This document shows positions 59,392-62,408 of a stretch of DNA of 64,000 nt, in pieces; position 1 is the stretch's first letter, and every line of letters starts with the position of its first letter. Location: contig JADKJP010000005.1 of assembly GCA_016720935.1 (NCBI GenBank), forward strand, positions 173,216-237,215. Direction: 5' to 3'. The notes beneath the pieces are model-generated. The model did not search any database, had not been told where the DNA came from, and saw nothing but the letters and a program-made list of their open reading frames with translations. Both the position numbers and the translations under genes were made by a program. Source of the DNA: Bacteroidota bacterium (GTDB lineage Bacteria; Bacteroidota; Bacteroidia; AKYH767-A; 2013-40CM-41-45).

Positions 59392-60112
59392 ATGCTTCAC
59401 AAGACCAGAGGTATTGTCATTCACACCACCGATTACTCCGAAACGAGTATTGTGGCCAAGATCTATACCGAACTTTTCGGCCTTCAGTCGTATATCGTGA
59501 ACAGTGTTCGGAAGAAAAACGCGAAAATAAAATCCAATGTATTCCAGCCGCTCACTCTGGTTGATTTAGTGGTTTATCATAAAGAGCGCGGTGGCTTACA
59601 AAGAGTCGCGGAAGTAAAACCGATGCCCGCCTTACGGAACATCCCTTTCGATATCCGAAAGAGTTCAATGGCATTGTTTCTTGACGAAGTATTGTACAAA
59701 TCTGTTCGGGAAGAAGAATGCAATCCGTCTTTGTTTGAATTCATCTTCAATGCAGTACAGATGCTGGATCTTCAGCATCCTATCAATCCGGATTTTCACT
59801 TGTTATTTTTATTACAGTACTCCAAATACCTGGGTTTCTTTCCTTCGAATGATTACGATGAAACACATTGTGTTTTCAATTTACAAGAAGGACATTTTCA
59901 AGCGGATGTACCCTCACATCCTTTTTATATTCCGGCAGATGTAAGTGCGTATTTCCATCAGTTGCTCGAAGTATTACCGGACTTTAACTCCAGGCTGTCG
60001 ATTCCGGTGGATATCAAAAGACAATTGATTGAACACATCCTGGAATATTTTGAATTGCATCTGACAGGATTTTCAGGCATCAAATCACACAGAGTGCTGG
60101 AACAGATTTTTG
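59392..60112 (+). CDS. recO: DNA repair protein RecO; the 3' end and stop are lost in the G/C homopolymer block
   Basis: N-terminal OB fold 'KTRGIVIHTTDYSETSIVAKIYTELFGLQSYIV', then a helical domain. About 240 aa of normal-looking sequence precede the anomaly; the extreme C-terminus cannot be read. Confidence 0.75.
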
Positions 60113-62408
60113 GGGCCGGGGGGGAAAAAGGGGGGGGTGTTCCCCCCGGTCCCGGCGCGGGGGGCCGGGCCCGGGGGGGGGGGGGGGGGGGGGGGGGGGG
60201 GGGGCCGGCCGGGGGGGGGGGGGGGGGGGGCCCCGGGGGGGGGGGGGCGCGTTTGGCGGCCCCTTCTTTTGGCCCCCCCCGCCCCCACTCCTCGGAGGGG
60301 GGGGGCGACGCCAAACCCCCCCCGGCGGGGGGGGGGCGGCCCCCCGGGGGGGGTCGGCCCGCCGTCCCCGCCGCCCAAGCCCCCCCACGCCTTGTTGGGG
60401 GGGGGCCCCGCCGGTGGCCGCGGGGGGGGGGCGGGGCCGGGGGGCCCGGGGGGGCGGGGGCGCGCGCCCCGGGCCGTCCGGGCCGGGCCCCGGGGCCCGG
60501 GGGGGGGGGGGGGGCTCTCCCCCCCCCGCCCCCCCCCCCCCCCCCCCCCCCCCCCCGGCCCCCTGCCGGGGGGGGGGTCCCCCCCCCCGCCGCGGCCCCC
60601 GCGGGGGGCGCGCCGCCGCCCCCCCGCCGCGGCCCCGGGGGGGGCCCCGCGCGGGGCGGGCCGGGGGCGGGGCCCCCGCGGGCCCGGGGCCGGGGGCGTT
60701 CGGCGCGGGGCGCGGCCCGCGGCGGGGCCCCCCCGCGGGCCCCCCCCCCCCCCCCCCCCCCCCCCCCCCCCCCCCCCCCCCCCCCCCCCCCCCCCCGGCG
60801 CCCCCCCCCCGGGGGGGGGGGCGGGGGGGGGGGGCCCGGGGCCCGCCCGCGGGGGGGGGGGCCGCCCGCCCTTGAAGGGGGCCCCCCCCCCCGGGGGGCC
60901 GGCCCCCCCCCCCCCCGGGGGGGGGGGGCGGGGGGCGCCGGGGGGGGCCCCCGCCGGGCCCCGCCCCCCCCCCCGCCGCCCGCCCGGGCCGGGGGGGCCC
61001 GGCGGCCCCCCCCCCCCCCCCCCCCCCCCCCGCCCCCCCCCGGGCCCCCCCCCCCCCCCCCCCCCCCCCCTGGGGCGGGCCCGGGGGGGGGGGGGGCCCC
61101 CCGGGGGGGGGGGGGGCCCCCCCGGGGGGGCCCCCCCCCCGCCCCGCCCGGGCCCCCCCCGGCCCCCGGGGGTTTTATTGGCCAGGGGGCCAAAAAGGGG
61201 GGGGTTTTTCCCCCCCCGCCCCCCCCCAGAGGGGCCCCCCCCCCGGGGGGGGGGGGGCGCGGCGGGGCGGCCCCCCCCCCCCAAGGAGGGGGGGGCCCCC
61301 CCCCCCCACCAGGGAGGGCCCCCCCCTGTGGCGCGCCCCCCCCCCCCCCGCCCCCCCCCCCCCCCCCAAACCCCCCCCCCCCCCCCGCGGAGGGGGCGCC
61401 CCCCCCCCCCCCCCCCCCCCCCCGGGGGGGGGCCCCCCCCCCGGCCCCCCCGCCGGGGCCCCCGCCCCCCCCCCCCCCCCCCCCCCCCCCCTTGGGGGGG
61501 GGGGCCCCCCCCGGCCCCCCCCCGGGCGCGCCCCCCCCCCCCCCCCCCCCCCCCGGGCCCCCCCCCCCCCCCCCCCCCCCCCCCCCCCCCGCCGGCCCGG
61601 GGGGGGGGAAAAACCCCCCCCCCCCCCCCCCCCCCCCCCCCCCCCCCCCCCCCCCCCCCCCCCCCCCCCCCCCCCCCCCCCCCCCCCCCCCCGGGGGGCC
61701 CCCCCCCCCCCCCCCCCGCGCCGGCGCGCCCCCCCCCCCCCCCCCCCCCCCCCCGGGCCCCGCCCCGGCCGCCCCCCGCCCGCCCCCCCCCCGCCGCCCC
61801 CCCACCCCCCCCCCCCCCACCCCGCGGGAACCCCCCCCCCCCCCCCCCCCCCCCCCCCCCCCCCCCCCCCCCCCCCCCCCCCCCCCCCCCCCCCTTTCTT
61901 TCTCCCCCCCGCCCCCTTTCCCCGCGCCCCCCCCCCCCGCCCCCCCCCCCCCCCCCCCCCCCCCCCGGGGGGGGCGGGGGAGCCGCCCCCCCCCCCCCCC
62001 CCCCCCCCCCCCCCCCCCCCACCCCCCCCCCCCAAAAAACCCCCCCCCCCCCACCCCCCCCCCCCCCCCCCCCCCCCCCCCGAGCCCCCCCCCCGGCCCC
62101 CCCCCCCCCCCCCCCCCCCCCCCCCCCCCCCGCCCCCCCCCCCCCCCCCCCCCCCCCCCCCCCGGGGGCGGCCCCCCCCGCCCCCCCCCCCCCCCCCCCC
62201 CCCCCCCCCCCCCCCCCCCCACGGCCATCCCCCCCAACCCCGCCCCCCCCCCCCCCCCCCCCCCCCCCCCCCCCCCCCCCCCCCCCCCCCCGCTACCCGC
62301 CCGCCCCCCCCCCCCCCCCCCCCCCCCCCCCCCCCCCCCCCCCCTCCCCCCCCCCCCCCCCCCCCCCCCCCCCCCCCCGGGGGGGCCGGGCCCCCCCCCC
62401 TTTTTTTG
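60112..62408. other. Anomalous ~2.3-kb block made almost entirely of G/C homopolymers; probable sequencing or assembly artefact
   Basis: Composition switches abruptly from the genomic background of roughly 40% GC to almost pure G and C. Individual runs exceed 50 C. Only isolated A/T islands occur (about 61173-61200, 61609-61613, 61895-61903, 62034-62039). Confidence 0.8.

What the first reader, a model, noticed from the sequence alone, without database searches (positions are those of the whole stretch)
60112..62408. 2.3-kb block of near-pure G/C homopolymers replacing the recO 3' end and convergent intergenic spacer
Just after RecO has run about 240 normal residues (…RVLEQIF), the sequence becomes alternating poly-G/poly-C. 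Its first ~0.9 kb is a mosaic of G-runs and C-runs. The last ~1.3 kb is dominated by C-runs tens of bases long, broken by a few A/T islets. Normal sequence resumes about 4 nt before the stop of the convergent membrane-protein gene (62412). All long 'ORFs' across it on both strands (59958-62237, 60085-62022, 60110-62449, 61175-62422 and the RecO fusion to 62502) translate to poly-Pro/poly-Gly/Ala/Arg, as expected from CCC/GGG/GCC/CGG codons. No Bacteroidota biology I know produces this. It matches no-signal poly-G calls in two-colour Illumina data or a mis-filled scaffold gap. If it were real it would be extraordinary: a roughly 100% GC island in a roughly 40% GC genome. Either way any annotation here is unreliable, and recO would be called truncated or fused.
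Basis: seen in the sequence. Interest (0 to 1): 0.7.

Follow-up and report, generated by a model that had tools for sequence, protein, structure and literature searches.

The report
Junk G/C filler from genome polishing
The 2.3-kb stretch of G and C runs is not real bacterial DNA but filler left by long-read assembly and polishing software, inserted at the exact point where recO meets its convergent neighbour; it probably marks a spot where some cells carry a real, unresolved insertion.

Summary
Window 60112-62411 is exactly 2300 bp of 94.5% G+C made mostly of homopolymer runs, in a ~43% G+C window that has nothing similar elsewhere.

It is a pure insertion; no reference base is missing. About 17 other read sets of the same population (flanks mostly 99-100% identical) read ...GAACAGATTTTT|TTATAATTCACTC... 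straight across the site. There recO is 241 aa (…EQIFL*) and overlaps the convergent flippase-like gene by 6 bp. The block sits between recO codons 240 and 241, inside a T7 run.

The window matches a third GenBank genome of a nanopore series built with Canu, Racon, Medaka and HiSeq X polishing. In that genome recO has no protein record. A sibling genome carries a 23-bp insert at the same base. Canu/Racon/Medaka is documented to write unsupported homopolymer filler where reads hold a segment the draft lacks. Two-colour Illumina poly-G does not fit.

Three short-k re-assemblies of runs numbered next to that project's known runs break exactly at this site (+8, +30, and a contig starting at 62412). 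This suggests a real alternative allele, most simply an insertion with an 8-bp TTATAATT duplication.

Verdict: artefact, low interest. The annotation here should be repaired.

The parts
59392..60111 (+). recO codons 1-240, intact and ending …RVLEQIF
   Evidence: 100% identical over 240/240 residues to the 241-aa RecO (P0001, MBL0065240.1) of sibling assemblies. Pfam RecO_N and RecO_C match.
60112..62411 (.). 2300-bp G/C homopolymer filler (artefact), inserted between recO codons 240 and 241 and inside a T7 run
   Evidence: All 20 related loci align without gaps up to 60111 and from 62412, and these two points are adjacent in those loci. The ORFs across the block have no Pfam hit and are absent from the 15-billion-protein collection.
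60106..60153 (+). First copy of a ~45-nt more sequence-like motif at the start of the filler: T-run, GG(GG)CC, G-run, AAAAA, G8, T(G)TT, C-run
   Evidence: It aligns locally to 61173-61221 with score 47 and a shared exact AAAAAGGGGGGGGT. A/T content is highest here and then decays.
61173..61221 (+). Second copy of the same motif, starting a second cycle of decaying complexity
   Evidence: After homopolymer compression it reads TATGCAGCAGT, against TATGC-GCAGT in the 23-bp insert of GCA_016714145.1. Eleven of 500 shuffles score as high, so this is weak evidence.
62401..62411 (+). Right end of the filler, TTTTTTTGGCC. Its last base C before TTATAATT fits the non-T predecessor implied by the Logan graph breaks.
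   Evidence: Sequence. Contig boundaries.
62412..62417 (+). Displaced last codon (TTA, Leu241) and stop (TAA) of recO
   Evidence: The reference junction GAACAGATTTTT|TTATAATTC gives …EQIFL*.
62412..63500 (-). Convergent flippase-like / LPG_synthase_TM gene (362 aa), intact. Its stop codon is 62412-62414, and in the true sequence it overlaps recO by 6 bp.
   Evidence: Pfam PF03706 match at E = 2.6e-28. The identical protein occurs in MBK7853194.1, MBL0065239.1 and MBL0138369.1.

Best explanation
The block is software-made filler, not DNA that exists in the cell.

Source (inferred). The window comes from a nanopore metagenome-assembled genome of an uncultured activated-sludge Bacteroidota (order AKYH767-A). 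The genome series was built with Canu, one Racon round on nanopore reads, two Medaka rounds and one Racon round on HiSeq X reads.

True sequence (shown). At this site the sequence is …GAACAGATTTTTTTATAATTCACTC…. recO is 241 aa and overlaps the convergent flippase-like gene by 6 bp.

Mechanism (inferred).
1. Part of the population carries something extra at exactly this point, most simply an inserted element flanked by an 8-bp TTATAATT duplication.
2. The draft contig lacked that segment while many long reads held it.
3. The polishers stacked the unaligned inserted bases of noisy reads from the left anchor.
4. The reads stay in register for a few tens of bases and then drift apart, so the consensus collapses into homopolymer runs.
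5. Repeated polishing rounds repeated the process, giving two or three cycles of a sequence-like start followed by decay.
6. Short reads cannot map to such filler, so the final short-read round, run with unpolished stretches kept, left it in place.

Consequence. recO is split after codon 240 and gets no protein record. Several poly-Pro/Gly ORFs appear.
For: SHOWN
- The block is a pure 2300-bp insertion with no reference base lost. All related loci align gap-free to 60111 and from 62412.
- The clean T7 junction is seen in 25 fetched loci, representing about 17 separate read sets. These are MEGAHIT-style ENA assemblies, Logan assemblies and GCA_016721635.1.
- A sister lineage has the same T7/TTATAA overlap.
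- RecO residues 1-240 are identical to the 241-aa protein.
- No Pfam family matches the junk ORFs, and they are absent from the protein collection.
- A third GenBank genome has proteins identical to the window, with consecutive accessions MBL0138366-70. There is no accession between the PorZ-like (…368) and flippase-like (…369) proteins. In the two sibling genomes RecO sits in that position.
- The sibling JADJNT (GCA_016714145.1) belongs to the Canu 1.8 / Racon / Medaka 0.6.5 x2 / Racon-HiSeq X project. It has a 23-bp insert at the very same base. Its 277-aa RecO is seen on one contig only, while every other listed cluster member is 241 aa.
[quoted passage not shown] - Logan k=31 graphs of three runs, whose numbers lie next to that project's known runs, break exactly here. 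L018 ends at junction+8, L019 ends at +30 (k-1), and L115 starts exactly at TTATAATTCACTC, which is window 62412. Contigs from other projects never break here.
- A/T content per 100 nt decays from 9-14 to 0-4, jumps to 18 at about 61173 and decays again, then rises more weakly at about 61800. The same ~45-nt motif starts the first two cycles.

INFERRED
- That the window is that third genome.
- That the graph breaks reflect an insertion allele.
- The stacking mechanism inside the polishers.
Against: - The source record itself could not be fetched. The pipeline is therefore inferred from identical proteins and the accession series, not read from the record.
- The precedent describes A/T homopolymers, not G/C. 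I found no paper describing G/C filler.
- The window's literal left junction (TTTTT|GGGG) does not show the TTATAATT copy that the 8-bp duplication model predicts.
- I cannot tell which SRR1167xxxx runs are nanopore and which are Illumina.
- The similarity between the filler starts and the 23-bp insert is weak: 11 of 500 shuffles score as high.
- No candidate inserted element was recovered. The 18-mer and 14-mer of the 23-bp insert hit only unrelated contexts.
Confidence: 0.9

Rival explanations
1. Junk from one aberrant nanopore read. A stalled or noisy stretch of signal was base-called as G/C runs. Canu kept it because it was run with corMinCoverage=0 and corOutCoverage=all. That read served as the consensus template, and the polishers could not delete 2.3 kb. 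In this reading no real variant exists at the site.
For: The Canu settings that keep uncorrected read parts are in the project's methods. Canu contigs misbuilt from single odd reads are documented. The block is absent from all other assemblies.
Against: - It does not explain why a second genome from another treatment plant has a 23-bp insert at the same base.
- It does not explain why three Logan graphs break at exactly this base.
- It does not explain the repeated start motif and repeated decay cycles.
Confidence: 0.2
2. Two-colour Illumina no-signal poly-G reads, assembled or used in polishing, produced the block.
For: The block consists almost only of G and C runs.
Against: - Long G runs and long C runs alternate on one strand.
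- The block is internal, with perfect unique flanks.
- It is 15 times longer than a 150-nt read.
- The sibling genomes' project used HiSeq X.
- In IMG/VR contigs C12G12 occurs only in G/C-rich tracts of 240 nt or less, mostly at contig ends.
Confidence: 0.03
3. The block is real DNA: a strain-specific ~95% G+C homopolymer island inserted at the recO stop.
For: Only that absence from other samples cannot strictly exclude a strain-private insertion. The right junction (C|TTATAATT) is compatible with the Logan graph breaks.
Against: - Runs up to C79 and 78 runs of 8 or more are far beyond any known stable bacterial tract. This rests on my own knowledge.
- There is no coding or RNA signal.
- It disrupts recO after codon 240.
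- The literal left junction is contradicted by L018, which shares 8 more bases with the reference before branching.
- A documented software cause exists.
Confidence: 0.01

Closest known systems
Polishing-introduced aberrant inserts in Canu + Racon + Medaka nanopore assemblies (Courtine et al. 2020, bioRxiv 10.1101/866020, Fig. 6)
   Same: It is the same tool chain as the sibling genomes' project. Kilobase-scale stretches dominated by homopolymers appear at a place where reads and draft differ structurally. The filler is not supported by independent data, and it is roughly the size of something real but of nonsense composition.
   Different: That case had A/T homopolymers and a ~10-kb region in a fungal genome. 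Here the runs are G/C, the block is 2.3 kb, and the host is a metagenome-assembled bacterial genome. Read-level proof is available there and not here.
Two-colour Illumina (NextSeq/NovaSeq) no-signal poly-G artefact
   Same: Long G runs (C on the other strand) with no biological meaning.
   Different: Those are pure single-base tails at read or contig ends, limited by read length. This block is an internal 2.3-kb mosaic of G and C runs with A/T islets. The related project used HiSeq X.
Insertion-sequence polymorphism with target-site duplication (for the real variant presumed to lie underneath)
   Same: It is site-specific and present in only part of the population. The graph breaks at +8 and +1 fit an 8-bp duplication of TTATAATT.
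   Different: No transposase, no terminal repeats and no element sequence were recovered. The duplication is inferred from contig ends in different samples, not read directly.
Phase-variable poly-G/poly-C contingency tracts of bacteria
   Same: G or C homopolymers inside or next to genes.
   Different: Those are single tracts of roughly 8-20 nt, conserved in position among strains (my own knowledge). Here there are 78 runs up to 79 nt over 2.3 kb, and none in the other read sets.

Membership tests
Long-read polishing filler (Canu/Racon/Medaka type) | The assembly was produced by a noisy-long-read draft plus consensus polishers | tested here: inconclusive
   Met for the sibling genome JADJNT. 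For the window it is inferred from five consecutive identical proteins, MBL0138366-70, in the same accession series. The record itself could not be fetched.
Long-read polishing filler (Canu/Racon/Medaka type) | Homopolymer-dominated sequence absent from independent assemblies of the same organism | tested here: met
   The block is 94.5% G+C with 78 runs of 8 or more bases. About 17 other read sets have the seamless junction.
Long-read polishing filler (Canu/Racon/Medaka type) | Sits where reads and draft differ structurally | tested here: inconclusive
   Three Logan contig boundaries fall exactly at the site. A second nanopore genome has a 23-bp insert at the same base. The reads themselves were not available.
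Long-read polishing filler (Canu/Racon/Medaka type) | No coherent read support for the filler sequence | not testable with these tools
   This needs the raw nanopore and Illumina reads of the source sample.
Two-colour Illumina poly-G artefact | Single-base G (or C) tracts at read or contig ends, no longer than a read | tested here: not met
   The block is an internal 2300-bp mosaic with G runs up to 32 and C runs up to 79 on one strand, flanked by unique sequence.
Two-colour Illumina poly-G artefact | Data from a two-colour instrument | tested here: inconclusive
   The sibling genomes' project used HiSeq X. The window's membership of that project is inferred.
Mis-filled scaffold gap | True sequence is missing between the flanks and replaced by the fill | tested here: not met
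   Zero reference bases are missing. The flanks are adjacent in all related loci.
Insertion sequence / mobile element at this site | Target-site duplication flanking the insert | tested here: inconclusive
   An 8-bp TTATAATT duplication is inferred from graph breaks at +8 and +1 in different runs. It is not visible at the left end of the window's block.
Insertion sequence / mobile element at this site | Transposase or other mobility gene, and terminal repeats | tested here: not met
   The ORFs across the block are poly-Pro/Gly with no Pfam hit. The window sequence therefore carries no element, and a real one would have to be recovered from reads.
Phase-variable homopolymer tract | A single short tract conserved in position among strains | tested here: not met
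   The block is absent from all other assemblies. It has 78 long runs over 2.3 kb.

The most novel reading that the evidence does not exclude
The block, or something close to it, is real. Under this reading a sub-population of this sludge bacterium carries at the recO stop an inserted stretch of DNA so G/C-homopolymeric, or so modified, that nanopore reading and short-read assembly both fail on it. The filler would then be a blurred image of it.

A milder and much more likely version, at about 0.6, is already part of my best explanation. In that version an ordinary inserted element with an 8-bp TTATAATT duplication lies hidden behind the filler.
Probability: 0.01. Interest if true: 0.85.

Novelty: not a real feature. 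Interest (0 to 1): 0.08.

Why it matters
Biologically it matters little. recO in this organism is a normal 241-aa gene, and the 'GC island' does not exist.

Practically it is a useful warning.
- A deposited high-quality genome appears to carry 2.3 kb of invented sequence. That filler removes recO from the protein set and would create long proline/glycine-rich phantom ORFs in any automatic gene call.
- Such blocks can contaminate protein databases, composition statistics and training data for sequence models.
- The same project's genomes may hold more of them. A simple screen (100-nt windows above 85% G+C in a ~43% G+C genome, or many homopolymer runs of 8 or more) would find them.
- The site may also hold an ordinary strain-level insertion polymorphism that the assembly failed to resolve.

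Tried and rejected
1. I looked for the source record. Two genome-contig scans found nothing, one with the left-flank 24-mer and one with a conserved 30-mer just outside the window. Exact look-ups of the fused 1036-aa RecO and four junk ORFs found nothing. A look-up of MBL0138367-type GT9 (P0062) found no gene on record. The source appears to be withheld from the searchable collections.

2. I asked whether the 23-bp insert of GCA_016714145.1 belongs to a known element.
- Its 18-mer has no match in the window at up to 3 mismatches.
- It has 13 matches in JGI metagenomes, all in unrelated contexts and about the number I would roughly expect by chance.
- The 14-mer core has no further match in the window or in the fetched loci.
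- A resemblance to the nanopore ligation adapter (T-run + AATG…) that I recalled from memory was not tested and is not claimed.

3. I asked whether the filler is a stretched copy of real sequence. Homopolymer-compressed alignment to the 23-bp insert is only marginal, with 11 of 500 shuffles as good. An AAAAA…TGTTCC resemblance to the reverse complement of the left flank is too short to count.

4. I asked whether 2300 = 100 x 23 means anything. I found no structural basis for it and treat it as coincidence.

5. I looked for the same site in a more distant sister species (JADJDN, about 80% identical). It has a naturally different junction with a 17-nt spacer, so it is uninformative.

6. I tried to list the project's other genomes of this species and its run numbers from the supplements. 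The stored files are truncated, and JADKHU and the SRR numbers are not in them.

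Full report
**1. What is in the window**

Positions 60112-62411 are a block of G and C runs. Over 60112-62408 the counts are C 1476, G 695, T 67 and A 59, which is 94.5% G+C. There are 78 homopolymer runs of 8 or more bases, the longest C79 and G32.

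The rest of the 64-kb window is about 43% G+C. It has no 100-nt stretch above 70% G+C, and its 17 runs of 8 or more are all A or T.

The first ~0.9 kb is a G/C mosaic. The last ~1.3 kb is C-dominated, with GC skew down to -0.86. Tandem Repeats Finder reports one 1043-nt 'period 1' C array plus many short G/C periodicities.

The two longest have no Pfam match.

**2. What the true sequence is**

I looked up the exact flanking proteins: the 362-aa LPG_synthase_TM/flippase-like protein and the 791-aa PorZ-like protein. This returned many contigs with the same genes in the same order. BLAST of the first 20 loci against the window is unambiguous. Each aligns without a single gap up to window 60111 and again from 62412, and these two points are adjacent in every one of them.

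The reference reads …GCTGGAACAGATTTTT|TTATAATTCACTCAC…, a T7 run followed by ATAA. A script found this clean junction in 25 fetched loci. Together they represent about 17 separate read sets:
- ENA assemblies with MEGAHIT-style contig names;
- Logan assemblies;
- the GenBank genome GCA_016721635.1.

Flank identity in these loci is mostly 99-100%, and 95-99% in three more diverged strains.

In these loci recO is 241 aa (…RVLEQIFL*) and overlaps the convergent gene by 6 bp. TTATAA holds both stop codons. The window's first 240 RecO residues are 100% identical to that protein. They carry RecO_N and RecO_C, and the neighbour carries LPG_synthase_TM. A sister lineage has the same T7/TTATAA arrangement in at least ten more Logan contigs.

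The block is therefore a pure 2300-bp insertion between recO codons 240 and 241. Nothing is replaced and there never was a spacer. Because 2300 is not a multiple of three, the fused frame runs on to 62502.

**3. Where the window comes from**

The source record is not retrievable, but the protein tables show its trace.

The window's 1089-aa, GT9, PorZ-like, flippase-like and ScpA proteins are identical to GenBank proteins MBL0138366, -67, -68, -69 and -70, on a contig of 456,487 bp. In the two sibling genomes RecO has the accession between the PorZ-like and flippase-like proteins (MBK7853193 and MBL0065240). In this third genome -68 and -69 are consecutive.

So recO has no protein record there and no junk ORF was accepted either. 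This is what one expects if the deposited record contains the block. This step is inference.

One sibling, JADJNT (GCA_016714145.1), is listed in the supplement of Singleton et al. 2021 as MAG EsbW_18-Q3-R4-48_MAXAC.253, classified as Bacteroidota, o__AKYH767-A, f__2013-40CM-41-45. That project's methods were:
- PromethION R9.4.1 reads called with Guppy 2.2.3 flip-flop;
- Canu 1.8 with corMinCoverage=0;
- Racon on nanopore reads with --include-unpolished;
- two rounds of Medaka 0.6.5;
- one Racon round with HiSeq X reads.

**4. How the block most likely arose**

Courtine et al. (bioRxiv 10.1101/866020) studied Canu + Racon + Medaka assemblies. [quoted passage not shown] The present block looks like the same failure.

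Four further observations point to a structural discrepancy at this exact base rather than a random accident.

*a) A second nanopore genome is affected at the same base.* The sibling JADJNT has a 23-bp insert (TTAATTGCGGCAAGTTGGTATTT) at the same base, giving a 277-aa RecO. That protein is seen on one contig only, while every other listed member of the 27-member cluster is 241 aa.

*b) Short-k graphs break here.* Logan assemblies are k=31 graphs in which k-mers seen only once are dropped, and contigs are reported when they are linked to another contig. Four Logan contigs come from SRR1167xxxx runs. The same number series holds one plant's nanopore run SRR11673978 and its Illumina run SRR11674035, so I take these runs to belong to the project; this is an inference from run numbers. 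Three of the four have a boundary exactly here:
- SRR11673992 (L018) ends 8 nt past the fifth T;
- SRR11674038 (L019) ends 30 nt past it, which is k-1;
- SRR11674022 (L115) starts exactly at TTATAATTCACTC, which is window 62412.

The fourth, SRR11673995, crosses the site, as do all contigs from other projects.

In a k=31 graph these three boundaries mean two things. There is an alternative sequence that shares the left flank through TTATAATT. There is also an alternative sequence that joins TTATAATTCAC… after a base other than T. One insertion allele with an 8-bp TTATAATT duplication explains all three. The window's right junction (…GGCC|TTATAATT) fits this model. Its left junction (TTTTT|GGGG) does not show the duplicated copy.

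*c) The filler has internal cycles.* A/T bases per 100 nt run 9, 14, 12, 2, 4, 2, 0, 4, 0, 1, then 18, 7, 7, 2, 3, 2, 1, then 10, 4, 9, 0, 7, 8. The first two cycles begin with the same ~45-nt motif: T-run, GGCC, G-run, AAAAA, G8, T(G)TT, C-run. This is what I would expect if each polishing round stacked the reads' unaligned inserted bases from the left anchor, in register at first and then drifting. It is an interpretation, not a demonstration.

*d) Weak sequence echo.* After homopolymer compression the motif resembles the 23-bp insert (TATGC(A)GCAGT). Eleven of 500 shuffles score as high, so this is weak.

**5. Rival explanations**

- *A single aberrant nanopore read carried into the Canu consensus.* This is possible given the Canu settings. 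It leaves the second genome's insert, the three graph breaks and the repeated cycles unexplained. I give it about 0.2.
- *Two-colour Illumina poly-G.* This does not fit an internal 2.3-kb mosaic of both G and C runs, nor the HiSeq X data of the related project. As a control I scanned IMG/VR for C12G12. It gave 52 contigs, in all of which the G/C-rich tract is 240 nt or less and mostly within ~100 nt of a contig end. I give this about 0.03.
- *A mis-filled scaffold gap.* This fails because no reference base is missing.
- *A real G/C island.* This cannot be strictly excluded without reads. It is contradicted by L018's extra 8 shared bases, by the absence from all other read sets, and by the existence of a documented software cause. 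I give it about 0.01.

**6. Comparison with known things and verdict**

The closest known thing is polishing-introduced aberrant inserts in Canu/Racon/Medaka assemblies. The differences are that this filler is made of G/C rather than A/T runs and sits in a bacterial metagenome-assembled genome. It is not a member of the two-colour poly-G class, not a gap fill, not a contingency tract, and carries no mobile-element gene as written.

Novelty: not a real feature. Interest is low (0.08). The value lies in quality control: repair recO, delete 60112-62411, screen the project's genomes for similar blocks, and check the site for an ordinary insertion polymorphism.

My confidence that the block is an artefact of long-read assembly or polishing is about 0.9 or higher. 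My confidence that it marks a real structural variant at the site is about 0.6.

Noticed in passing
L054 2151-4673; L081 11245-12816; L052 6304-7504 (IMG/VR contigs 3300021961_008451, 3300027782_005864, 3300042383_001130): Three AT-rich (32-42% G+C) viral contigs from different metagenomes carry a repeated intergenic element. It has three parts:
- a hairpin GTGCCAA-N-TTGGCACG-N4-CTGCT, whose second half matches my recalled sigma-54 -24/-12 consensus TGGCAC-N5-TTGC;
- a perfect C17-26/G15-27 hairpin;
- then TATCCCCTTGGGATACCCCATTGTAC…GTCAAG-T-run.
There are nine copies in all. It looks like a real phage regulatory or terminator module, not an artefact.
   Followed up: partly
L015 9148-9170 (= L004, L042; GCA_016714145.1, JADJNT010000024.1): A 23-bp insert, TTAATTGCGGCAAGTTGGTATTT, lies at exactly the base where the window's block sits. 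It removes the recO stop and gives a 277-aa RecO (MBK7853193.1) that is seen on one contig only. It is probably a smaller version of the same assembly problem, so that protein record is likely wrong at its C-terminus.
   Followed up: yes
L018 end (9155), L019 end (6415), L115 end (1152): Logan k=31 contigs from runs SRR11673992, SRR11674038 and SRR11674022 stop or start exactly at the insertion point (+8, +30 and +1). This points to a real alternative allele in those sludge samples, possibly an element with an 8-bp TTATAATT duplication. Its sequence was not recovered.
   Followed up: partly
L114 4001-5088 (GCA_016702675.1, JADJDN010000011.1): In a related species' nanopore genome the flippase-like gene is split into 261-aa and 120-aa pieces. 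The first 253 residues are identical to the intact 362-aa protein of other assemblies. This is probably a leftover single-base indel error.
   Followed up: partly
L044-L095 (IMG/VR contigs), mostly within ~100 nt of contig ends: Most of the remaining ~49 viral contigs with C12G12 carry a short C-run/G-run palindrome at or near a contig end, many from metagenomes numbered 33000062xx-33000085xx. This looks like a library or assembly end artefact of those data sets. It is unrelated to the window.
   Followed up: no
window 55555-56826 (+): The family-9 glycosyltransferase ORF opens with two in-frame ATGs two codons apart. GenBank records use different starts: 423 aa in MBL0065242.1, and 421 aa in MBL0138367.1 and MBK7853191.1. 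The longer form overlaps the upstream 1089-aa gene by 4 nt.
   Followed up: no
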